From a virus, in the UHGV virus genome UHGV-1364013: a DNA stretch of 46,305 nt. One strand, 5' to 3'. Below, piece by piece: positions 1 to 23,717 of this stretch; the first letter of the stretch is position 1, and each line of letters starts with the position of its first letter. The translations under genes and the position numbers were made by a program. Under the pieces are notes generated by a model that worked only from the letters and a program-made list of their open reading frames with translations, ran no database searches and was not told the origin of the DNA.

Positions 1-1
1 G

Positions 2-541
2 GCAGCGTCCGCCAAGGCCGTAAAGACGGCCTATGATCTGGCGAACAGCAAAGCAAACCTTGGTTTTACGCCCGTGCAGCAGGGCGGCGGAACGGGGCAA
101 AACAACACCAAAATTTATATAGGATCCGCTGGTGTGTCAGGTTTAAAAGCTCAGCAGGGCACAACGGACTTAGGCAATATAGTAACAACCACAGCCGGAA
201 CGACTAGAGCTCCTTCAGCTACTAAAGTTTACGTTGAGAAATTTGGAGAGATGTCTTGGATCTACACTCAGTATGCTAACAGTCCGGCCAACGTATGGTG
301 CCTTCCCGCAAATAGCGACTACGCGCATTTGTGTTCGCCGAGTGTACTTTCTGTTGGTGCATCGCAACTTACCATTACTTCTCCTAACACCCGTATATTC
401 CAAACTAACGGAAGTTTGCCTGCAGGAGGAAGTTGGGTAGTTATAGTTTCCAGAAATGGAAACGGTGTTGTTGCACAACTAGCAGGTGGATCTTCGGTGG
501 ATACTTCTGGTGGAGTCGCCCTAGCAATCAGGGTGCAGTAA
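2..541 (+). CDS. Tail fibre protein, C-terminal part (partial; the ORF is open to the window start)
   Basis: Frame open from nt 2 with no stop before 541. Gly/Thr/Ser-rich beta-type composition. It precedes a tail-fibre assembly gene, and the window ends with a tail-fibre N-terminus. Confidence 0.5.
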   Translation, partial: AASAKAVKTAYDLANSKANLGFTPVQQGGGTGQNNTKIYIGSAGVSGLKAQQGTTDLGNIVTTTAGTTRAPSATKVYVEKFGEMSWIYTQYANSPANVWCLPANSDYAHLCSPSVLSVGASQLTITSPNTRIFQTNGSLPAGGSWVVIVSRNGNGVVAQLAGGSSVDTSGGVALAIRVQ

Positions 542-551
542 AGGAGGACAA

Positions 552-1112
552 ATGAGCTACAACAAAATAGTCCATCGGACCGCTGACGATTCCTACGTCA
601 TCACGAAAAACGGAATGCCCTACCATGTCTATCCCTACTCTGCCGAATTCGCGGAAGAATGGGACGAGGCATTTGCCTATGCCGAGGCGCACCCTGAATG
701 CGTGACCGAAGAAAAGCCCTACGTCCCGCCCGTGCCCACGCTCGAGGAGGCGAAAGCCGCCAAGCTCGCGGAGATCAACGCAGCGGCTGATCAGGCTATG
801 GCCGTGCTCACAGCGACATACCCCGACCGCGAGATCGCCACTTTTGACAAGCAAGAATCTGAGGCTCGCGCCTACGCCGCTGATCCCACGACACCCACTC
901 CGCTCCTCTCCGCCCTGTCACAGGCTCGGGGCGTAGAGCTTCCCGAGCTTGTGCGGCGCGTCATCGCCAAGGCAGACGCTTTTGCCGTGGCCTCGGGCTC
1001 AATCATCGGGCAGAGGCAGGCGCTGGAAGATCGGCTTAATGCCTGCGCGACGCTGGAAGAAGTAGAGGCCCTCACCGTCGCCATCTCCATGCCGGGCGGG
1101 GGAGAAGCATGA
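552..1112 (+). CDS. Tail fibre assembly/chaperone protein
   Basis: SD aaggagga 6 nt upstream. Lies directly downstream of the tail fibre. N-terminus resembles phage tail fibre assembly proteins. Confidence 0.5.
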   Translation: MSYNKIVHRTADDSYVITKNGMPYHVYPYSAEFAEEWDEAFAYAEAHPECVTEEKPYVPPVPTLEEAKAAKLAEINAAADQAMAVLTATYPDREIATFDKQESEARAYAADPTTPTPLLSALSQARGVELPELVRRVIAKADAFAVASGSIIGQRQALEDRLNACATLEEVEALTVAISMPGGGEA

Positions 1113-1204
1113 CCTACGGAAAACGAACCCTGATCGCCATTGACCAGCTCCTCAATACGCTTCTCGGCGGCTGGCCGGACGAAATTTGCTATATTTTATC
1201 CTAG
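1109..1204 (+). pseudogene. 31-aa N-terminal orphan fragment of a small gene split by the HNH cassette (MTYGKRTLIAIDQLLNTLLGGWPDEI...)
   Basis: ATG overlaps the stop of the upstream gene (ATGA coupling). Residues 7-26 are paralogous to the start of the 1856..2095 ORF. Reading ends at a stop in AT-rich cassette DNA. Confidence 0.4.
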
Positions 1205-1244
1205 ATGATATAGTCGCCCATACCTAAACAAAAGGAGAAAAGGT

Positions 1245-1862
1245 ATGGGCACTATGTTAGGAATAGGATGGAATAGAAAATGCGAACATTGCGGGACTAC
1301 TTTCAGGGCATTTTCGCATAAACAGAAATTTTGCTCTGAGGAGTGCGCTTTCCTTGGAAGGCTCAAAAGGATTGACGTTTCTGGATGTATCGAATGGCAA
1401 GGTAACATCAATAATTCTGGATATGGTGTGATGAGCGTCATCCGTGAAGGGAAAAGGAAAATTGTAGGTGTGCATAGATACGCATGGGAGCGAGTACACG
1501 GTAAAATTCCTGATGGGATTTGTGTATGTCACAAATGCGACAACCCTAAGTGTGTCAATATCGACCACCTTTTTATAGGTACAAGGTACGACAATAACCA
1601 TGACCGTTCACTCAAAAATCGTAGCGGAAAGAGGGTTTTTACAGATGAAGAGCGCTATAGGTATTCGTGTATAAACAGTGGAGGAAAAAACAACTCTGCA
1701 AAGCTCACAGAAGAACAAGTCATACAGATAAAAAATCTACGCGGAAAATGTACTAGGAAAGAGATAGCAAAGAAATTCAATGTATCATTGGCTTGCATAA
1801 AAGACATTTTCGGAGGAAAGACGTGGAAATTCCTAGAGGACAATACATCAAAAACGTGCTGA
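1245..1862 (+). CDS. Free-standing HNH homing endonuclease (HNH_3-type) with a C-terminal HTH
   Basis: Motifs HRYAWERVHGKIP...CHKCDNPKCVNIDHLFIGT. N-terminal CxxCG..F..KFCSxxC zinc ribbon. AT-rich island in a GC-rich genome. SD aaaaggagaaaagg. Confidence 0.8.
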   Translation: MGTMLGIGWNRKCEHCGTTFRAFSHKQKFCSEECAFLGRLKRIDVSGCIEWQGNINNSGYGVMSVIREGKRKIVGVHRYAWERVHGKIPDGICVCHKCDNPKCVNIDHLFIGTRYDNNHDRSLKNRSGKRVFTDEERYRYSCINSGGKNNSAKLTEEQVIQIKNLRGKCTRKEIAKKFNVSLACIKDIFGGKTWKFLEDNTSKTC

Positions 1863-2095
1863 TTGCTATAGACCAGCTTTTCAACGCAGCCATAGGCGGA
1901 TATTGCGACGAAAGTCTGTCCTCCCGTGCATGGCGCTGGGCGCGGGACGGGGTGAGAGTATGGCCCCGGCGCGTGGTGGACGGGCTGTTCTTCTGGCAGA
2001 GGGAACACTGCAAAAGCAGTTATGAGAGCGAGAGGGAGGGGAGGCAGTCGCCGCCGGAGTTGCGGGTAAAAGTCCACTCCGTAACCAGTCGTTAG
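1856..2095 (+). CDS. Small hypothetical protein (intact downstream copy of the split gene; GTG start coupled to the HNH stop)
   Basis: GTG at 1856 overlaps the HNH TGA (GTGCTGA). N-terminus LIAIDQLFNAAIGGYCDES parallels the orphan fragment at 1109..1204. Confidence 0.4.
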   Translation: MLIAIDQLFNAAIGGYCDESLSSRAWRWARDGVRVWPRRVVDGLFFWQREHCKSSYESEREGRQSPPELRVKVHSVTSR

Positions 2096-2151
2096 ATATT
2101 GCCACTCGCGAGCCTATTCCATATCCTCCTTTCCAAAGAAGGAGAGACACC

Positions 2152-2382
2152 ATGCCGCTACCGATGCCCGAAGAAGAGGAAAACTTGCGTTGCCCGCACG
2201 GAGAACGTGTTCAAGCGTTGATGCTGTGCTCACTCGACTGTGCCGTGTCGGGTGCTCATCCCGCCCGGAAAGCAAAAGCTGATGGTCGGTTCATCATCAC
2301 GCCGTGGTGGTGCCTGCACAAATGCAGGTGGTTGCCAGAGCACCGGGATGAGATCCGATTCGTGGCGAAGAAGTCGGACTGA
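2152..2382 (+). CDS. Small cysteine-rich hypothetical protein
   Basis: Strong SD aaggagagacacc before the ATG. Followed by a hairpin terminator. Confidence 0.45.
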   Translation: MPLPMPEEEENLRCPHGERVQALMLCSLDCAVSGAHPARKAKADGRFIITPWWCLHKCRWLPEHRDEIRFVAKKSD

Positions 2383-2392
2383 AGACACAAAA

Positions 2393-2432
2393 AAATCCCC
2401 CTCCCGGCGCGAACCGAGAGGGGGATTTTCGC
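2393..2432 (+). terminator. Rho-independent terminator (atccccctc...gagggggat + T-rich tail)
   Basis: 9-bp GC stem followed by TTTTCGCATTC. Confidence 0.5.
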
Positions 2433-2491
2433 ATTCACACAGCATACCGATGCTCACTTTTTTGAGGCGTTGGGAAGACGCTTTTTGCCGT

Positions 2492-2524
2492 CTGCACCAA
2501 GCTGTTTGGTGCAGGATGTTTGTT
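2492..2524 (+). terminator. Hairpin (tgcaccaa/ttggtgca) with a T-rich tail; possible terminator
   Basis: 8-bp stem, then gatgtttgtt. Confidence 0.3.
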
Positions 2525-2536
2525 ACATGCTAAATT

Positions 2537-2578
2537 GACATCCTCCCCCGACTTCAGGCGGGGGAGGATGTCAACCTC
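2537..2578. repeat. Perfect 40-bp palindrome that copies the IS605 right-end hairpin (cccccgacttcaggcggggg core)
   Basis: The core is near-identical to the RE hairpin at 25472-25501 of the full IS. Flanked by ggatgtcaa arms. Confidence 0.6.
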
Positions 2579-2589
2579 CTACGCGGCCC

Positions 2590-2712
2590 GCCTTTTTCTG
2601 TATCTGTCGAGCATACCGGGGTTCTGAGCGAGCTCGCACCGGAATGCGGAAATCACGTCCACATGGTAGGCGTTGATACCTTCCGGGTATTCTGGGGTGG
2701 CGATTTTCTCTA
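2590..2712 (-). pseudogene. Remnant 3' end of an antirepressor (Ant/KilA-C) gene
   Basis: Translation NAYHVDVISAFRCELAQNPGMLDRYRKRRAA matches the C-terminus of the Ant protein at 32571..33374 (KAYHVDVIEAFRLSLKNDLNMLGKYRLRRAA). Bracketed by IS-derived hairpins. Confidence 0.4.
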
Positions 2713-3039
2713 TGGATTGACATCCTCCCCCGCCTGAAGTCGGGGGATTCCCAGCGGAGGCAATCTTGCGATTGCGTCCCTGAGCGGGTTCCTGCTTCAC
2801 CGAGACTGCCCAGAGGAACAAGGCTTGGTTTTCGCCGCAAACATTCCCACGTGGGGAATTTTACGGGTACGAACCAACCGCCTATTCCCCCAGGTCTCAC
2901 CATCTCTCCACAGGCTGACACGGCATGCCCTGCCGCCGTGTCACCTGTTAGCAAACAAAGGCAGGAAAGTCAAAATTCCAGTTAAGGTGCGCCTTATATC
3001 CTCCCCCTAAAGGGCGAGGCTTTACGGCGCTTTGGGTAA
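2711..3039 (-). mobile_element. IS200/IS605-derived MITE/PATE, inverted relative to the full IS; no tnpA or tnpB
   Basis: Reverse-complement RE hairpin at 2712-2747 and reverse-complement LE at 2975-3035, including the ccagcgcgccgtaaag-like end. Reverse-complement TTAC target (GTAA) at 3036-3039. Interior shares cgggttcctgcttca and aattccagttaaggtgcgcc with the full IS. Confidence 0.55.
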
Positions 3040-3113
3040 AACAATGGCTAGTTCAGTTTGTGTTATCCCCGTTGCTTTCATCCCATCGTGAATGGCTTTT
3101 TGTACTGTGGTGT

Positions 3114-19670: not shown

Positions 19671-20224
19671 TGGGAGTTGTGAGCATGGCGTCAAGATTTG
19701 ATTGGGAATCCATCCGTGCCGAGTACGAAGTAGGGGCGAGCCAGTCCGATCTGTCCAAGCGTTACGGTGTGAGCCGGACAGCCATCCAAAAGCGCATCCG
19801 GGCCGAGGGCTGGGTGCAGGACATTTCCGGCACCGTGAACCGCATGGCGGAGGCCAAGGTTGTGGGCGTGGTTGCAGGCTGCAACCCTCAAAAAAAGGCC
19901 GAAGCCTTGGACCGCGCCGCCGAAGCCAAGGCCGCCGTCATCACCCGCCACCAACGGGAGTGGGATCGACATCAGGCCCTCATTGATGAGGCGTTGTCCC
20001 TGGGCAGCTTCGACAAGGCCAAGCTCGCCAAAATCACAGCCGAGACGATCAAGATCCGGCAGGAGGGCGAGCGCAAGGCGTGGGGCATCGTTGACAAAGC
20101 CGCGTTGGATCACACTTCATCCGACGGTTCGCTATCTCAGCGTCCGGTGGATCTCTCGCACCTCTCTCCGGACGAGCTGCTTCGCCTGACAAAGGAAGCC
20201 TTCAAAACGCCGGATCATGAGTAG
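19670..20224 (+). CDS. terS: Terminase small subunit (HTH-containing); alternative ATG start at 19685
   Basis: Lies directly upstream of terL. N-terminal HTH LSKRYGVSRTAIQKRIR. Stop overlaps the terL start. Confidence 0.5.
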   Translation: MGVVSMASRFDWESIRAEYEVGASQSDLSKRYGVSRTAIQKRIRAEGWVQDISGTVNRMAEAKVVGVVAGCNPQKKAEALDRAAEAKAAVITRHQREWDRHQALIDEALSLGSFDKAKLAKITAETIKIRQEGERKAWGIVDKAALDHTSSDGSLSQRPVDLSHLSPDELLRLTKEAFKTPDHE

Positions 20225-23200
20225 CCCCGCCATCCTTTCCGATATCCGGAAGGCGCTGGCCCGGAGCTGTCTCGCGGCCTTCGTGCGCTACACCATGCCC
20301 GGCTACCGCATGGGATGGGTGCATGAGGAAATCTGTTCCGAGCTGGACGCCTTCCTTGCCGATGTCGTAGCTGGACGTTCCCCGCGCCTCATGCTGACCA
20401 TGCCCCCGCGACATGGGAAACTGTGCGCTGATGATACTCCTGTTTTGACGGTTGATGGGTGGAAAACTCATGGTGCGCTTAAGGTTGGTGATTATGTATT
20501 TCACCCAAGTGGCAAACCTGTGAGGGTTGTTGCTGTGGGCGAGAAAAATTTTGCCACTCATTCTGTTGTTTTTACCAATGGCGACATAATAGATGTGCAC
20601 CTTGATCATGAGTGGCGGGTGTATGACAGGACTAAACCCGGATATAGAACAGTTGAGACACGATACTTTGTGGAGCCAAGCAAAAAAACTAAGGCGCTTA
20701 GGAAGCTGGATAGCGGTATCCCAGACACCAGAGGGCACAGGTATTTGTATCAGGTGGACACAGCTGATGCTCCCCAATGGCCTGCCGTAGAACACGTTAT
20801 CCCGCCATACGTTTTGGGCGTGTGGTTAGGTGATGGAACGTCAATCGCGCCCAGAATAAACATGGCTCCTGATGACGCTTGTGTCGTCAAAATGGAGTTT
20901 GAACGACTAGGTGTGCCAATAACTGGAACATGGGTGCATAGAGATACTGGAGTTGAAACTTTTTCATTTGCCAGCGGCGTGAAAAATAGAAGAAATATAT
21001 TTTCGCAGGCTCTAAAAGATGCTGATCTGCTAAAAAATAAACATATTCCTAATGAGTACAAGCATGATAGCCTAGAAAACAGGCTTGACTTGCTTGCTGG
21101 ACTTATTGATACGGATGGTCATTTTGATAGAAAGACAAACAGATATCGTTTTACAACATCCAATGAGCTGTTAGCGCATGATGTAGAAGAATTGGCCATG
21201 CTATGCGGGTTTGTAGCGCATACAAATATCCCAGCACTAGATAATCGGGAAAGAACGATTAAAAATAAGTCACAGGTTTATGTGGTGTCATTTTTCTTTT
21301 CCGGTGTAGTTGTCCCGTGCAGACTTGAACGGAAAAAAGTTAATAAAACGTTTTCTTCTCTGCGTCGGCGCGTATCCATCAAATGTGTACGAGCGCTAGA
21401 GTCGCCTAAAATGGGGAATTGTATTCAGGTGGATAGTCCAGATGGCTTATATTTAGTTGGCAAACACCTTACGATAACCCACAATAGCGAGCTGGCCTCC
21501 CGCCGCTTCCCGGCCTACGCCTTGGGCCGCTACCCCGATCTATCCGTCATTTCAACGAGCTACGCCGCCGACCTGTCCTCGCGCATGAACCGCGATGTTC
21601 AGCGTGTCATCGACAGCCCGGAATACCGGGAACTCTTCCCGGGAACAGCCCTTTACGGCAAGAATATCCGCACCGTCGGGAACGGCTCTTATCTCCGCAA
21701 CTCGGATATCTTCGAAATCGTGGGGCACGCTGGCTGCTACCGTTCCGCTGGCGTGGGCGGCGGCATCACGGGCATGGGTGGGCATATCGTCATCGTCGAC
21801 GACCCGTTCAAGGACCGGGCGTCCGCCGATTCCCCGACCATCCGCCAGAACGTCTGGGACTGGTACACGTCCACGTTGTACACGCGCCTCGCGCCCGGTG
21901 GAGGGGTGCTCATCATCAACACTCGCTGGCACATGGCTGACCTTTCCGGGCGGCTGCTTGAGGCCGCCGCACGGGGGGAGGGCGACCACTGGCGCGTGGT
22001 AAACTTCCCGGCCATCGCCACGGAGGATGAGCCGCACCGCAAGGCAGGTGAAGCCTTACACCCTGAACGCTACCCGTTGGAGCAGCTTCTTGCCATCAAG
22101 AAAGCCCTCGGCACACGCGACTGGGAGGCCCTGTACCAGCAGCGGCCTACGCCAGACGGCGGCGCCATCTTCAAATCCGAGTGGCTGCGGTTCTGGCTCC
22201 CCAAAGACCTGCCGGAGCAGTTCGACCAGCTCCTTATCTCGTGGGATATGACGTTCAAGGACGGCGACGATACCGACTTTGTTGTGGGGCAGGTGTGGGG
22301 CCGCAAGGGGGCAGACCGCTACCTCCTCGATCAGGTCCGGCGGCGCATGGGATTTACGGACACGGTCGCCGCGTTCCGGGAGCTCGCCGCCAAATGGCCC
22401 GGCGCAGCCCGCAAGCTGGTGGAAGACAAGGCCAACGGCCCGGCGGTCATCGACGCGCTGAAACACGCCGTGCCCGGTATCATCCCCGTGGAGCCGGACG
22501 GCAGCAAGACGGCTCGCGCCCATGCTGTGACCACGTTCTTCGAGGCCGGGAACGTCCTTATCCCGCACCCTGAGCATTGCCCGTGGGCGCGGGAGTACGT
22601 CGCGGAACTGACGCAGTTCCCCGGAGCGCCCCACGACGATCAATGTTTTGCTGCAGGCACTTTAGTTGCGACTTTGCGAGGGGGTATCCCAATTGAAAAA
22701 GTAAAGGAAGGTGATTTTGTTGTGACTCCTCAAGGGTTTAGGCGTGTGTTGTTCGCTGGAAAAACCGGAGAGTCTGTGTTATTGTATCGACATGGAATTT
22801 TTGCAACTGCGAATCATCCGTTCATGAAAACCAGTGGAGAAGTTTGCAAATTTGCAGAAATAGAAAAGTCTGAACTTGTTCACATGACTATAAGGGAGTT
22901 GCTAGTATGGATATTCCGAAAAGAGTTGAATTTAATGGCGTCACCTATGCCCTCATGGCAGGGGGGAAATACTATCTTAGTCAGTCAAAAACAAACGCAG
23001 GTGGGAAAAATCCGAAGGGGCTTCATGTCGCTATTTGGGAATACTACAGTGGCAAGAAAGTCCCTAAAGGGTATGAGATTCATCACAAAGATGGTAATAC
23101 ACATAACAACAATTTTGACAACCTTGAGTGTTTATCACGTTGTGAACACCGCAAAACGGTTAAGCAAAACAAAGAAAAATGCCGTAAGCACCTTGAAGAA

Positions 23201-23717
23201 GTACGCCCTCTTGCTACTGAGTGGCACAGGAGCGAAGAAGGCCGTGCATGGCATCGAGAGCAAAGCAGGAAGGCATACGCAAAAAGAGAGTATACTGAGC
23301 ATGTTTGTGAGTACTGCGGCAAGACGTATAAAACGCGCCATACGGGAAAAAACCGCTTCTGTTCCCATAATTGTGAAATCAAATGGCGATATCACAATGA
23401 ATACGAGCTTGCCGAGGGTGTGTGCCAATGGTGCGGCAAACCGTTCACATACAAGACCGGAACCTGCAGAAAAAACAAAGTACGTAAATTCTGCAGCAAG
23501 TCTTGCAGCACAAGCCACTTCAACGCCCAACGCCGTGCCAGTGTATAACCTCACCGTAGAGGGCGAGCACCTTTATTTTGCTAATGGGGTGCTCGTCCAC
23601 AATTGTGACGCCACCACGCAGGCCCTCCGCGACTTCGATACCAAGCGGCCCATGTGCATCGACACCCGGATACTGCGCCAGCCGCGCATGGAGTTGAGGC
23701 GCATTGGGGGGATTTGA
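20217..23717 (+). CDS. terL: Terminase large subunit precursor with two inteins (mature protein about 493 aa)
   Basis: Exteins carry the P-loop PRHGK(L|S), the ATPase motif VIVDDPFKD and the nuclease domain. Intein boundaries are C...THN|S and C...VLVHN|C. Confidence 0.8.
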   Translation: MSSPAILSDIRKALARSCLAAFVRYTMPGYRMGWVHEEICSELDAFLADVVAGRSPRLMLTMPPRHGKLCADDTPVLTVDGWKTHGALKVGDYVFHPSGKPVRVVAVGEKNFATHSVVFTNGDIIDVHLDHEWRVYDRTKPGYRTVETRYFVEPSKKTKALRKLDSGIPDTRGHRYLYQVDTADAPQWPAVEHVIPPYVLGVWLGDGTSIAPRINMAPDDACVVKMEFERLGVPITGTWVHRDTGVETFSFASGVKNRRNIFSQALKDADLLKNKHIPNEYKHDSLENRLDLLAGLIDTDGHFDRKTNRYRFTTSNELLAHDVEELAMLCGFVAHTNIPALDNRERTIKNKSQVYVVSFFFSGVVVPCRLERKKVNKTFSSLRRRVSIKCVRALESPKMGNCIQVDSPDGLYLVGKHLTITHNSELASRRFPAYALGRYPDLSVISTSYAADLSSRMNRDVQRVIDSPEYRELFPGTALYGKNIRTVGNGSYLRNSDIFEIVGHAGCYRSAGVGGGITGMGGHIVIVDDPFKDRASADSPTIRQNVWDWYTSTLYTRLAPGGGVLIINTRWHMADLSGRLLEAAARGEGDHWRVVNFPAIATEDEPHRKAGEALHPERYPLEQLLAIKKALGTRDWEALYQQRPTPDGGAIFKSEWLRFWLPKDLPEQFDQLLISWDMTFKDGDDTDFVVGQVWGRKGADRYLLDQVRRRMGFTDTVAAFRELAAKWPGAARKLVEDKANGPAVIDALKHAVPGIIPVEPDGSKTARAHAVTTFFEAGNVLIPHPEHCPWAREYVAELTQFPGAPHDDQCFAAGTLVATLRGGIPIEKVKEGDFVVTPQGFRRVLFAGKTGESVLLYRHGIFATANHPFMKTSGEVCKFAEIEKSELVHMTIRELLVWIFRKELNLMASPMPSWQGGNTILVSQKQTQVGKIRRGFMSLFGNTTVARKSLKGMRFITKMVIHITTILTTLSVYHVVNTAKRLSKTKKNAVSTLKKYALLLLSGTGAKKAVHGIESKAGRHTQKESILSMFVSTAARRIKRAIREKTASVPIIVKSNGDITMNTSLPRVCANGAANRSHTRPEPAEKTKYVNSAASLAAQATSTPNAVPVYNLTVEGEHLYFANGVLVHNCDATTQALRDFDTKRPMCIDTRILRQPRMELRRIGGI
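20424..21485 (+). mobile_element. Intein 1 (354 aa) with a LAGLIDADG homing-endonuclease domain, inserted in the terminase Walker-A loop
   Basis: Starts CADDTPVLTVDGW. Contains LDLLAGLIDTDGHF. Ends ITHN followed by +1 Ser. AT-rich relative to its flanks. Confidence 0.75.
22644..23603 (+). mobile_element. Intein 2 (320 aa) in the terminase nuclease domain
   Basis: Starts CFAAGTLVATLRGGIPIEKVKEGDFVVT. Ends GEHLYFANGVLVHN followed by +1 Cys. AT-rich. Confidence 0.7.
22907..23548 (+). CDS. HNH endonuclease ORF nested out-of-frame inside intein 2
   Basis: HHKDGNTHNNNFDNLECLSRCEHRKT is an HNH motif. C-terminal CxxCGK..RFCSxxC repeats. Frame offset +2 relative to terL. Confidence 0.65.
   Translation: MDIPKRVEFNGVTYALMAGGKYYLSQSKTNAGGKNPKGLHVAIWEYYSGKKVPKGYEIHHKDGNTHNNNFDNLECLSRCEHRKTVKQNKEKCRKHLEEVRPLATEWHRSEEGRAWHREQSRKAYAKREYTEHVCEYCGKTYKTRHTGKNRFCSHNCEIKWRYHNEYELAEGVCQWCGKPFTYKTGTCRKNKVRKFCSKSCSTSHFNAQRRASV

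What the first reader, a model, noticed from the sequence alone, without database searches (positions are those of the whole stretch)
1109..2095. HNH homing-endonuclease cassette splits a small gene and carries a diverged duplicate of the gene's 5' coding end
A 31-aa fragment (MTYGKRTLIAIDQLLNTLLGGWPDEI...) is translationally coupled to the tail-fibre chaperone. An AT-rich cassette follows (own SD, HNH_3 gene 1245-1862). The full remainder of the gene then restarts with a paralogous N-terminus (LIAIDQLFNAAIGGYCDES..., about 70% nucleotide identity) at a GTG overlapping the HNH stop. The duplicated, diverged target segment is what is expected if the HEG arrived with co-converted donor flanks and protects the resident allele from recleavage. 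The host gene stays expressible through coupling to the HEG.
Basis: partly seen in the sequence, partly recalled or inferred. Interest (0 to 1): 0.6.

Follow-up and report, generated by a model that had tools for sequence, protein, structure and literature searches.

The report
Homing endonuclease carrying replacement gene start
A selfish nuclease gene has inserted into a small phage gene next to the tail-fibre genes, and it brings a recoded, probably cut-resistant copy of the gene's first 25 codons, so the gene stays whole while the element spreads among related gut phages.

Summary
Window 1185-1913 is a 729-nt insertion after codon 25 of a conserved 76-87-aa phage gene (phrog_3342). A near-isogenic filled/empty pair (L005/L105) defines it to the base.

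The insert holds:
- a promoter-like site;
- an RNA hairpin that pairs the nuclease start codon;
- an I-HmuI-like HNH gene (1245-1862);
- a GGAGG plus GTG start (1823) inside the HNH 3' end;
- a recoded copy of codons 3-25 (GGYCDES in place of GGWPDET).

The old codons 1-25 remain as a 31-aa remnant ORF (1109-1204).

The cassette is 98-100% identical in eight other contigs whose flanks are only 25-94% identical. All 21 HEG-junction protein clusters carry YCDE, against 5 of 99 HEG-free clusters. HNH lineages down to 57-61% identity mostly keep the same fragment-HEG-gene layout.

Corrections:
- The downstream gene is essentially complete, not a remainder.
- Its start is more likely GTG 1823 than GTG 1856.
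- The duplicate is 60-65% identical in DNA, not 70%.
- It is built into the element, not a co-converted flank.

Cleavage and resistance are inferred, not shown. The closest analogues are yeast WHO/FBA1 elements and fungal mitochondrial HEGs.

The parts
552..1112 (+). Tail-fibre assembly chaperone gene. It is the left neighbour, not part of the mobile cassette. Its stop overlaps the start of the remnant ORF (ATGA at 1109-1112).
   Evidence: phrog_2618 at E 1e-37. The equivalent genes in relatives carry Pfam DUF4376 or HI1402_helical. This gene is hypervariable among HEG+ loci: 25-85% identity over its last 150 nt.
1109..1184 (+). Resident 5' end of the small gene (codons 1-25 plus 1 nt, GGWPDE type), left behind upstream of the insertion. 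It probably serves as the left homology arm for homing.
   Evidence: It matches family HMM positions 1-25 (E 5.6e-11). It is collinear and near-identical with the HEG-free alleles L006 and L105 up to GACGAAA. It is polymorphic among HEG+ loci (67-100% identity) while the cassette is not.
1109..1204 (+). 31-aa remnant ORF: 25 resident codons, then 6 codons (ICYILS) and a TAG supplied by the cassette.
   Evidence: The same ORF with the same ICYILS* tail is present in L001, L002, L003, L005, L016-18 and L108.
1185..1915 (+). Mobile homing cassette: a 729-nt insertion (1185-1913) plus 2 converted bases (GT, 1914-1915).
   Evidence: The filled/empty comparison of L005 vs L105 gives a gap of exactly 729 nt and CC->GT. 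Window vs L006 shows the same empty site. Over 1185-1924 the cassette is 740/740 identical to L001-L003, 728/740 to L016 and 724/740 to L005, with divergent flanks.
1186..1214 (+). Promoter-like site at the left edge of the cassette: -35 TTGCTA, 17-nt spacer, extended -10 TGATATAGT.
   Evidence: Consensus scan; hits are not enriched over shuffles in this region. The same -35 / 17-18 nt / TGATATAGT-or-TGATATAAT layout is readable in diverged cassettes L109, L111 and L113. The 60-nt leader shows 0/60 changes between the window and L108, against a synonymous divergence of 0.235 in the HNH ORF.
1199..1262 (+). RNA hairpin. Its 10-bp inner stem pairs the HNH start codon (AUG 1245-1247), and the SD (GGAG 1234-1237) sits in the 15-nt loop. 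The -10 element lies in the 5' arm.
   Evidence: MFE -27.9 kcal/mol, z -4.6, 0 of 200 shuffles fold as well. The inner stem is kept in 5 of 6 lineages, with one compensatory C-G to G-C change in L113. The regulatory role is inferred by analogy with T4 HEGs (PMC2988022).
1245..1862 (+). HNH homing endonuclease gene (205 aa): N-terminal CxxC..CxxxC zinc ribbon, HNH_3 catalytic core, C-terminal helix-turn-helix.
   Evidence: Pfam HNH_3 at E 2e-13 and PHROG endonuclease families. H96, C98, D99, N100, C103, H108 and N117 are invariant in 55 homologues. The AF2 model has pLDDT 88 and its best PDB fold hit is I-HmuI 1U3E. pN/pS is 0.16 against the L108 copy.
1812..1825 (+). SD GGAGG (1812-1816), a 6-nt spacer, then GTG 1823: the probable translation start of the restored small gene, nested in the HNH 3' coding end in another frame.
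   Evidence: Read directly from the sequence. Gene callers start the homologues P0001-P0008 here (MEIPRGQYIKNV..). The same position is ATG in L108 and TTG in L109, L111 and L113, always 6 nt after GGAGG.
1823..2095 (+). Restored, essentially full-length small gene (90 aa from GTG 1823), PHROG 3342 family, function unknown. It is a chimera of the cassette-borne 5' end and the resident 3' part.
   Evidence: It covers family HMM positions 2-76 at E 5.8e-48 and phrog_3342 at E 4.8e-21. From about 1976 onward it is near-identical to the HEG-free L006 allele.
1844..1913 (+). Recoded duplicate of codons 3-25 (YIKNVLIAIDQLFNAAIGGYCDE), carried by the cassette. Presumed nuclease-resistant version of the target.
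   Evidence: It is 42/70 nt identical to 1115-1184; of 23 codons, 6 differ synonymously and 9 non-synonymously. It is 81% identical to the natural YCDE-type allele L011 and 60-61% to WPDE-type alleles. YCDE is found in 21/21 HEG-junction clusters and 5/99 HEG-free clusters.
1914..1975 (+). Variable right-hand tract. It is dense in differences from the HEG-free L006 allele, and its similarity to other HEG+ loci ends at different points. Probably co-converted donor sequence.
   Evidence: Window vs L006. Identity with L005 ends at about 1923, with L016 at about 1926 and with L001-3 at about 1950.

Best explanation
This is a free-standing HNH homing endonuclease cassette that has homed into the coding sequence of a conserved small phage gene, after codon 25 (..GGC TGG CCG GAC GAA A^). 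The gene lies immediately downstream of the tail-fibre chaperone gene.

Shown by the sequence comparisons:
- The element is a discrete 729-nt insert.
- It carries its own leader, the HNH gene, an SD and start codon nested in the HNH 3' end, and a recoded copy of codons 3-25 of the target gene.
- The insertion therefore regenerates a full-length gene downstream. The displaced resident codons 1-25 remain upstream as a 31-aa remnant.
- The cassette is nearly invariant across phage backgrounds whose flanks differ widely, and it is joined to at least 20 different 3' alleles.

Inferred:
- The nuclease cuts or nicks HEG-free alleles at or near the GGWPDET-coding sequence.
- Repair then copies the cassette from an HEG+ genome. 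The resident 5' fragment serves as the left homology arm and the gene body as the right arm.
- Neither junction of the filled site is cleavable. The left junction lacks the 3' half-site. At the right junction the 5' half-site is recoded: GGCTGGCCG becomes GGATATTGC, which changes WP to YC.
- Because both homology arms come from the target gene itself, the element does not depend on the hypervariable tail-fibre and chaperone genes to its left.
- HNH expression is probably restrained on read-through late transcripts by a hairpin that pairs the start codon. Transcripts from the cassette's own promoter would start inside the hairpin's 5' arm and so relieve this, as in phage T4 HEGs.
For: - Empty-site definition: L005 vs L105 differ by exactly 729 nt plus CC->GT, within 97-100% identical flanks. 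Window vs L006 shows the same site.
- Horizontal spread: the cassette is 98-100% identical in L001-3, L005 and L016-18. In the same loci the chaperone end is 25-85% identical, the fragment 67-100% and the downstream gene 61-94%.
- Abundance: the exact HNH protein is on 90 contigs.
- Many independent junctions: the 21 HEG-junction protein clusters have 20 distinct 3' parts. Each is 70-100% identical to some HEG-free allele.
- Association with the recoded segment: YCDE in 21/21 vs 5/99 clusters, Fisher p 5e-19.
- Target conservation: GGWPDETLSSR is among the most conserved stretches of the family.
- A working nuclease gene: HNH_3 match; catalytic and zinc residues invariant; best PDB fold hit is I-HmuI; pN/pS 0.16.
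- Deep conservation of the layout: HNH lineages at 83, 76 and 61% identity keep chaperone / WPDE-type (L112: YAD) fragment / HEG / complete gene with YCDE (L109, L111) or WSDE (L112). In the 57% lineage L113/114 (FCDE gene) only a possible degenerate 41-aa fragment was seen by eye, not by the HMM.
- Nested start: GTG, ATG or TTG 6 nt after GGAGG in five lineages.
- Leader: 0/60 changes against synonymous divergence of 0.235; hairpin z -4.6 with one compensatory change.
- Not an intron: no Rfam intron match even at E up to 10.
Against: - No cleavage assay exists. The target site, the type of cut (double-strand break or nick) and the resistance of YCDE alleles are all inferred.
- Free-standing phage HEGs often cut hundreds of bases from their insertion point (PMC2988022), so the cut site need not be at the junction.
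- The closest IMG/VR relative (L025, 57% identity) has the HEG upstream of a complete small gene with no fragment. The fragment is therefore not indispensable to every member.
- 5'-end fragments of this gene also arise without any HEG: the L006 50-aa ORF.
- The promoter scan is not enriched over shuffles.
- Hairpin covariation rests on a single compensatory event.
- All relatives come from metagenome assemblies. Some variants, such as the frameshifted HEGs, could be assembly errors.
Confidence: 0.76

Rival explanations
1. The HNH gene is an ordinary intergenic free-standing HEG lying upstream of a complete gene, as in L025. It cuts at some other, possibly distant, site. On this view the 31-aa fragment is a neutral scar of one old illegitimate insertion that is simply inherited with the element. 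The YCDE segment is just the allele of the original donor and has nothing to do with immunity.
For: - L025 has HEG plus a complete gene and no fragment.
- The downstream copy covers nearly the whole family profile, positions 2-76.
- Natural HEG-free YCDE alleles exist: L011, 81% identical to the cassette copy.
- T4 free-standing HEGs cut far from their genes (PMC2988022).
Against: - The fragment/junction architecture is kept in HEG lineages as diverged as 61% identity, with the break always after ..PDE or ..AD.
- Fragment sequences vary with the recipient background while the cassette does not. L001 and L003 share identical flanks yet differ at 11/76 positions in the fragment. That points to recombination within the fragment at each transfer.
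- Right-hand identity ends within 2-40 nt of the duplicate. This places repair tracts, and probably the cut, at this spot.
Confidence: 0.13
2. The fragment is an ordinary truncated paralogue created by shuffling of tail-fibre modules. The conserved 5' end of the small gene acts as a recombination linker between fibre/chaperone cassettes. The HNH gene is an unrelated passenger that happens to lie there.
For: The HEG-free prophage L006-L009 has a 50-aa ORF that starts MIYRKCNLISFDQFINILL. It is coupled to a first chaperone gene and followed by a second fibre+chaperone set and then the intact gene.
Against: - In 9 close HEG+ loci the junction is identical to the base, and the inserted DNA is only the 729-nt HEG cassette. 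In the diverged lineages L109-L112 the break falls at the same codon.
- The near-isogenic pair L005/L105 differs by nothing else.
- YCDE is tied to the HEG at p 5e-19.
Confidence: 0.05
3. The HNH protein is a domesticated phage nuclease, for example a packaging-associated or anti-competitor nuclease, and not a mobile element. Its patchy distribution reflects gain and loss of an accessory gene.
For: - Many phage HNH proteins work with terminases (PMC3592412 abstract).
- pN/pS of 0.16 shows selection for protein function.
Against: - It lies far from the terminase gene (20217-23717).
- Its fold and domain order resemble I-HmuI.
- Its composition is AT-rich and foreign to the phage.
- Presence or absence at one exact site in near-identical genomes, together with a recoded target copy, is the signature of homing.
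Confidence: 0.04
4. The insert is a self-splicing intron, or otherwise removed at the RNA or protein level, that joins the 25-codon fragment to the gene body. Formally, 1186-1914 begins after a U and ends in a G.
For: - The insert length is a multiple of 3.
- The boundaries U1185 and G1914 fit the group I rule.
Against: - There is no group I or group II intron match in Rfam at E up to 10.
- Only about 110 nt lie outside the HNH ORF, too little for a ribozyme core.
- The insert carries an in-frame copy of the 5' codons with its own SD and start, which splicing would make pointless.
- A stop codon at 1202 and a separate ORF rule out an intein.
Confidence: 0.02

Closest known systems
WHO ('weird HO') homing elements next to FBA1 in Torulaspora and Lachancea yeasts (Coughlan et al. 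2020; summarised in PMC7282806)
   Same: - The nuclease gene sits beside its target gene.
- Homing recombines the target with a nuclease-resistant donor version of one end of the gene.
- The displaced end remains as a fragment on the other side of the nuclease gene.
The logic is the same: carry a resistant replacement end and leave the old end as a relic.
   Different: - WHO nucleases are intein-derived LAGLIDADG enzymes with a zinc finger, in eukaryotic nuclear genomes. They replace the 3' end of FBA1.
- Here the nuclease is an HNH (I-HmuI-like) enzyme in a phage. It replaces the 5' end, so it must also supply an SD and a start codon, which are nested in its own ORF.
Free-standing HEGs in fungal mitochondrial genomes with partial duplication of the neighbouring gene (atp6, cox1, atp9; PMC7487136). 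From my own knowledge, also the Allomyces macrogynus atp6/ORF360 hybrid gene (Paquin et al. 1994).
   Same: Insertion of the HEG is accompanied by a partial duplicate of the host gene. One copy becomes a pseudogene fragment and the other completes the gene.
   Different: - Those are GIY-YIG or LAGLIDADG enzymes in organelle genomes, and usually involve the 3' end.
- No evidence was offered there for a conserved cassette with nested translation signals that spreads across many backgrounds.
Intronless homing by T-even phage free-standing HEGs (SegF, SegG, SegB, MobE; PMC2988022)
   Same: - A free-standing phage HEG spreads by break repair with co-conversion of flanking markers.
- It targets a conserved neighbouring gene.
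- Translation is controlled by a hairpin with a promoter inside it.
   Different: - The T4 HEGs sit between genes and replace the recipient's flanks without duplication.
- Here the element lies inside the ORF and carries a recoded duplicate of the displaced coding end.
Genes in pieces made by HEG insertion: mobE in Aeh1 nrdA, mobA in T4 gene 60/39 (PMC2988022 section 17)
   Same: An HNH HEG has inserted within a phage coding region without an intron or intein.
   Different: - Those insertions split the protein into two polypeptides that must reassemble.
- Here the downstream ORF alone covers the whole family profile (positions 2-76), and the upstream piece is redundant.
I-HmuI / I-HmuII, HNH homing endonucleases of Bacillus phages SPO1 and SP82
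   Same: - Best structural match (1U3E, Foldseek E 9.5e-4, probability 1.0).
- HNH core followed by a helix-turn-helix DNA-binding module.
- Phage-borne.
   Different: - I-HmuI is encoded in a group I intron and nicks one strand.
- Sequence identity is only 14%.
- The protein here has an extra N-terminal zinc ribbon and is not in an intron.

Membership tests
Free-standing HNH homing endonuclease gene (Pfam HNH_3, I-HmuI-like) | Intact HNH / His-Me finger catalytic core with its zinc-binding cysteines | tested here: met
   Pfam HNH_3 at E 2e-13, 50 bits against a cut-off of 24.8. H96, C98, D99, N100, C103, H108 and N117 are invariant in 55 homologues.
Free-standing HNH homing endonuclease gene (Pfam HNH_3, I-HmuI-like) | Modular build: catalytic domain plus a separate DNA-binding domain | tested here: met
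   The AF2 model has pLDDT 87.8. The best PDB match is I-HmuI 1U3E over 189 columns. The C-terminal helices match GerE/LiaR-type HTH domains only weakly (E 0.6 or higher).
Free-standing HNH homing endonuclease gene (Pfam HNH_3, I-HmuI-like) | Presence/absence polymorphism at one exact site in otherwise near-identical genomes | tested here: met
   L005 vs L105: a 729-nt indel in 97-100% identical flanks. Window vs L006.
Free-standing HNH homing endonuclease gene (Pfam HNH_3, I-HmuI-like) | Element far more conserved than its flanks across different genomes (horizontal spread, co-conversion tracts) | tested here: met
   The cassette is 98-100% identical against 25-94% for the flanks. The right-hand tract ends at variable points between 1915 and 1950. 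There are 20 distinct 3' alleles among 21 HEG-junction clusters.
Free-standing HNH homing endonuclease gene (Pfam HNH_3, I-HmuI-like) | Recognition sequence absent or altered in the HEG-bearing allele | tested here: inconclusive
   The intact empty-site sequence is missing at both junctions, and the duplicate is recoded (WP to YC). The true recognition sequence is unknown.
Free-standing HNH homing endonuclease gene (Pfam HNH_3, I-HmuI-like) | Site-specific cleavage or nicking of the HEG-less allele, and super-Mendelian inheritance | not testable with these tools
   This needs purified protein and phage crosses.
Group I / group II intron-encoded HEG | Ribozyme core flanking the ORF | tested here: not met
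   No intron family was matched in Rfam 15 at E up to 10 over 900-2700. Only about 110 nt of the insert lie outside the ORF.
Intein | In-frame insertion with Hint splicing domains and no internal stop | tested here: not met
   There is a TAG stop at 1202-1204, the HNH ORF is separate with its own SD, and there is no Hint match.
WHO-type 'replacement-end' homing element | Nuclease gene flanked on one side by the functional target gene (variant end, resistance untested) and on the other by a relic of the displaced end | tested here: met
   The order fragment 1109-1184 / HNH / full gene 1823-2095 is present in the close HEG+ loci and in the 83%, 76% and 61% HNH lineages. In the 57% lineage L113/114 the fragment is uncertain.
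WHO-type 'replacement-end' homing element | Intein-derived LAGLIDADG nuclease with a zinc finger; FBA1 as target; yeast nuclear genome | tested here: not met
   The nuclease is HNH_3, the target is a PHROG 3342 phage gene, and the genome is a phage. It works like a WHO element but is not a member.
Genes-in-pieces created by HEG insertion (Aeh1 nrdA/mobE type) | Two ORFs encoding non-overlapping parts that must reassemble | tested here: not met
   The downstream ORF alone covers family HMM positions 2-76. The fragment (positions 1-25) is redundant with it.

The most novel reading that the evidence does not exclude
This may be a long-lived family of self-contained phage homing cassettes that home into an open reading frame without an intron or intein. 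They would do so by carrying a recoded, nuclease-immune replacement for the displaced 5' coding end, with the replacement's SD and start codon embedded in the nuclease ORF. The old 5' end would be kept as a portable left homology arm.

Both arms then come from the target gene, so the element can hop between phages whose adjacent tail-fibre and chaperone (host-range) modules share no homology. It would mark, and may set, the boundary at which those modules are exchanged. The two diverged direct repeats also offer a route to HEG-free but immune alleles, as the L014 patch suggests.
Probability: 0.5. Interest if true: 0.7.

Novelty: new variant of a known kind. Interest (0 to 1): 0.58.

Why it matters
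Homing endonuclease genes are thought to survive inside genes only when an intron or intein removes them, or when the split protein can reassemble. This locus shows a third solution in phages: the element repairs the damage it causes by bringing a recoded copy of the coding end it displaces, with translation signals nested in its own ORF.

- The same design was previously described for yeast WHO elements and some fungal mitochondrial HEGs. Its appearance in phages suggests convergent evolution of a general strategy.
- It gives a natural pair of alleles predicted to be sensitive (WPDET) and resistant (YCDES), which makes mapping of HNH specificity straightforward.
- It lies at the edge of the host-range (tail-fibre) module in abundant human-gut Desulfovibrionaceae phages; one family member is annotated in Bilophila wadsworthia. 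Nuclease-driven recombination there could affect host-range evolution.
- For annotation pipelines, it explains a recurrent 31-aa ORF and the odd MEIPRGQYIKNV N-termini.

Tried and rejected
- Megablast of window 1-3000 against INPHARED phages: no match.
- GTDB genome scan with the HNH protein: only distant relatives (31-41% identity) in unrelated taxa, and no host assignment.
- IMG/VR scan: 80 loci, of which only L025 has the small gene beside the HEG.
- Pfam and NCBIfam: nothing for the small gene, the chaperone or the 76-aa downstream gene.
- AlphaFold model of the small protein: low confidence (pLDDT 62.6; four short helices). BFVD matches are all uncharacterised phage proteins, so no function was assigned.
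- phmmer of the HNH protein against PDB sequences: nothing at E 0.01 or below. The fold search was needed instead.
- Rfam scan for an intron or other RNA in 900-2700: only sub-threshold noise.
- RNA structure around the nested start (1790-1880): no more stable than shuffles, z +1.5.
- DNA-level repeat significance: 42/70 against the best chance match of 36/70, so I do not use DNA identity alone as evidence.
- L014 as a simple HEG-deletion product of an L108-type locus: rejected because their N-terminal segments differ. L014 does carry a patch identical to the cassette copy, about 70 nt from GACCAG to about window 1935. That leaves patch conversion, or HEG loss from another donor, as open possibilities.
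- 8-nt match TTGCTATA between the left edge (1186-1193) and the copy (1864-1871): considered as a microhomology clue but judged compatible with chance.
Full report

Yes.
- The chaperone-like gene 552-1112 (phrog_2618, E 1e-37) ends in an ATGA overlap with a 31-aa ORF, 1109-1204 (MTYGKRTLIAIDQLLNTLLGGWPDE-ICYILS*).
- A 205-aa ORF at 1245-1862 matches Pfam HNH_3 (E 2e-13) and many PHROG endonuclease families.
- GC drops from 0.62-0.69 to 0.34-0.45 over the insert.
- A third frame then reads ..YIKNVLIAIDQLFNAAIGGYCDESLSSR.. to the stop at 2095.

Both small ORFs belong to one family, PHROG 3342 (function unknown). The fragment matches profile positions 8-32 and the downstream ORF matches 14-85. 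With an HMM built from 76-88-aa homologues, the fragment covers positions 1-25 (E 5.6e-11) and the downstream ORF covers 2-76 (E 5.8e-48). Nothing else in the window matches.

The best chance match is 36/70.

**2. The uninterrupted gene and the exact insert.**

A protein search with the downstream ORF found 273 relatives. Most are 76-87-aa proteins that begin MTYGKRTLIAVDQLLNTLLGGWPDETLSSR... In HEG-free contigs the gene is coupled by ATGA directly to a tail-fibre chaperone gene carrying DUF4376 or HI1402_helical.
- L006 is a prophage in a 3.48-Mb contig and is near-identical to the window on both sides. It lacks window 1185-1914.
- L005 (HEG+) and L105 (HEG-) are 97-100% identical in their flanks. 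They differ by a gap of exactly 729 nt after GACGAAA, plus CC->GT.

The element is therefore window 1185-1913 (+GT). Its last 70 nt are the diverged copy of the 70 nt that precede the insertion point.

**3. The cassette is mobile.**

The same fragment / HNH / gene order, with the identical ICYILS* junction, occurs in L001-L005, L016-L018 and L108.

Identity between the window and these loci:

| Segment | Identity |
|---|---|
| Cassette, window 1185-1924 | 740/740 (L001-3), 728/740 (L016), 724/740 (L005) |
| Last 150 nt of the chaperone gene | 25-85% |
| 76-nt fragment | 67-93% |
| Next 134 nt of the gene | 61-94% |

- Identity on the right ends at about 1915 (L005 vs its empty partner), about 1923-1926 (L005, L016) or about 1950 (L001-3). 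These look like repair tracts of variable length.
- L001 and L003 share identical flanks and cassette but differ at 11/76 positions in the fragment. Exchange therefore also happens within the fragment.
- The exact HNH protein is recorded on 90 contigs.
- Among the 120 listed family clusters, 21 begin with the HEG-junction peptide (MEIPRGQYIKNV..). These have 20 different 3' parts, each close to some HEG-free allele.
- All 21 carry GGYCDE[ST]. Of the 99 HEG-free clusters, 86 carry WPDE and only 5 carry YCDE (Fisher p 5e-19).
- GGWPDETLSSR lies in the most conserved part of the protein, which is the kind of site HEGs favour.

**4. The nuclease.**

Catalytic and zinc residues are invariant across 55 homologues. 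The AF2 model is confident (pLDDT 87.8), and its best PDB match is the HNH homing endonuclease I-HmuI (1U3E). I-PpoI follows, and the C-terminal helices resemble GerE-type HTH domains only weakly (E 0.6 or higher).

Against the 92%-identical L108 copy, pN/pS is 0.16, so the protein is under purifying selection. Two frameshifted variants at A-runs (P0149, P0150) may be decaying copies or assembly errors.

No intron is detectable, and the ORF is not in frame with the host gene. It is therefore a free-standing HEG.

**5. Expression signals carried by the cassette.**

(a) *Start of the small gene.* GGAGG (1812-1816) lies 6 nt before GTG 1823, inside the HNH 3' end. Gene callers start the homologues there. 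The same position is ATG in L108 and TTG in L109, L111 and L113, always after GGAGG.

(b) *Leader.* The 60-nt leader shows 0/60 changes between the window and L108, although synonymous divergence in the ORF is 0.235 (binomial p about 1e-7). It contains a -35 / 17 nt / extended -10 site (TTGCTA..TGATATAGT, 1186-1214). That layout is recognisable in the diverged cassettes L109 (TGATATAAT), L111 and L113.

(c) *Hairpin.* A hairpin at 1199-1262 has dG -27.9 and z -4.6. Its inner stem pairs the HNH AUG, and the SD sits in the loop. The stem is kept in 5 of 6 lineages, with one compensatory change.

The -10 element lies in the hairpin's 5' arm. Transcripts from this promoter would therefore lack most of that arm, whereas read-through late transcripts would fold. 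This matches the layout described for T4 I-TevI, segB and mobE (PMC2988022). The regulatory reading is inference.

**6. Age and origin.**

HNH relatives at 83% (L109), 76% (L111), 61% (L112) and 57% (L113/114) identity all lie after a fibre chaperone gene and before a complete small gene.

| Locus | Fragment | State in the complete gene |
|---|---|---|
| L109 | ..GWPDE-NPIG* | YCDE |
| L111 | ..GWPDE-G* | YCDE |
| L112 | ..GYAD-G* | WSDE |
| L113 | possible degenerate 41-aa ORF (seen by eye, not by the HMM) | FCDE |

The layout is thus a durable property of the element family, not a one-off accident. L025 (57%, an AT-rich phage) has the HEG between the chaperone gene and an SCDE-type gene with no fragment. 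This may be the ancestral intergenic state, or a later loss.

The cassette's copy is 81% identical to a natural HEG-free YCDE allele (L011) and 60-61% to WPDE alleles. The recoded end probably derives from a YCDE-type gene in front of which the HEG once sat.

L014 is HEG-free. It carries a patch of about 70 nt identical to the cassette copy, between divergent flanks. This is consistent with conversion to the immune allele without the HEG, or with HEG loss.

**7. Mechanism.**

Shown:
- a discrete 729-nt insert at one site;
- its contents;
- its spread across backgrounds;
- its tie to the recoded segment;
- restoration of a full-length ORF.

Inferred:
- The nuclease cuts or nicks WPDET-type alleles near the junction.
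- The left break end pairs with the fragment, and the right end pairs with the gene body.
- Synthesis across the donor copies the HEG together with the recoded end.
- Both junctions of the product lack the intact site.
- The arrangement frees the element from needing homology in the hypervariable fibre and chaperone genes.

**8. Comparison with known systems.**

Functionally this is the mirror image of the yeast WHO/FBA1 elements and of fungal mitochondrial HEGs with partial atp6/cox1/atp9 duplications. In family terms it is a phage free-standing HNH HEG of the intronless-homing kind. It differs from the T4 cases, which are intergenic with no duplication, and from genes-in-pieces, where the halves do not overlap.

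My literature searches found no phage example of a HEG carrying a recoded replacement coding end. The library is incomplete, so I rate this a new variant of a known kind.

**9. Verdict.**

Confidence that this is a homing cassette with a built-in replacement 5' end is about 0.8. Confidence in the specific cut site and the immunity claim is about 0.6-0.7, pending biochemistry.

Noticed in passing
window 20217-23717 (+): The large terminase ORF is 1166 aa, about twice the usual size. Besides Terminase_6N (aa 425-659) and Terminase_6C (aa 674-812), Pfam finds LAGLIDADG_3 (aa 290-338), Hint_2 (aa 810-847) and a below-cut-off Intein_splicing match (aa 861-1129, 23.4 bits against a cut-off of 35.8). 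There are probably two inteins, one with a LAGLIDADG homing endonuclease, so this phage carries several homing elements.
   Followed up: partly
window 2534-2574 and 2716-2747; also L108 and L014 just after the small gene's stop: There are two copies of a roughly 40-nt near-perfect palindrome, TTGACATCCTCCCCCG..CGGGGGAGGATGTCAA (31-nt arms, 100% complementary between copies). They lie in the non-coding stretch after the 76-aa gene and its terminator (2391-2430). The same element follows the small gene in the relatives L108 and L014. Its function is unknown; it could be a terminator, a protein-binding site or a small mobile repeat.
   Followed up: no
window 46305 -> 1: The tail-fibre ORF runs off the end of the window (..SVSLADST) and continues in frame at base 1 (TAASAKAVKTAYDLANSK..). 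The window is therefore a circularly permuted, probably complete, myovirus-like genome of about 46.3 kb: portal, protease, major head protein, sheath, tape measure, baseplate. The exact chaperone protein is also recorded on a 46,360-bp JGI contig.
   Followed up: partly
L006 664-816 (also L007, L008, L009): In the HEG-free prophage, a 50-aa ORF coupled to a first DUF4376 chaperone gene starts MIYRKCNLISFDQFINILL. This is an AT-rich N-terminal fragment of the same small gene. It is followed by a second fibre+chaperone set and then the intact gene. The 5' end of this gene is thus a recurrent recombination junction even without a HEG.
   Followed up: partly
L014 about 3030-3100 (HEG-free allele P0043): A patch of about 70 nt (GACCAGCTTTTCAACGCAGCCATAGGCGGATATTGCGACGAAAGTCTGTCCTCCCG) is 100% identical to the cassette's recoded copy, between divergent flanks and with no HEG. 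It is a candidate footprint of HEG loss, or of conversion to the immune allele without HEG acquisition.
   Followed up: partly
proteins P0149 (73 aa) and P0150 (170 aa), members of the window HNH cluster: These are frameshifted HNH variants at A-runs (window equivalents about 1455-1465 and 1683-1690), each on 4 contigs. They are either decaying HEG copies or homopolymer assembly errors.
   Followed up: no
L112 2470-2500: In the 61%-identity HEG lineage the leader differs, but a short stem (CAACTC..GGAGTTG) would pair the SD itself. This is a different sequence solution to the same apparent translational masking (read; not folded).
   Followed up: no
window 2152-2382 (+): A 76-aa Cys-rich ORF (CPHG..C..C..WWCLHKC) follows the small gene. 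It is conserved, 100% identical over its first 47 nt and the preceding intergenic region, in the HEG-free prophage L006, where it is the last phage gene before bacterial flagellar-export genes. It has no family match in Pfam, PHROGs or NCBIfam.
   Followed up: no
protein P0140 (167 aa; cluster of P0005): This is a variant in which the small gene reads through into a further 85-90 residues, on 5 contigs. It is a possible fusion or a lost stop codon.
   Followed up: no
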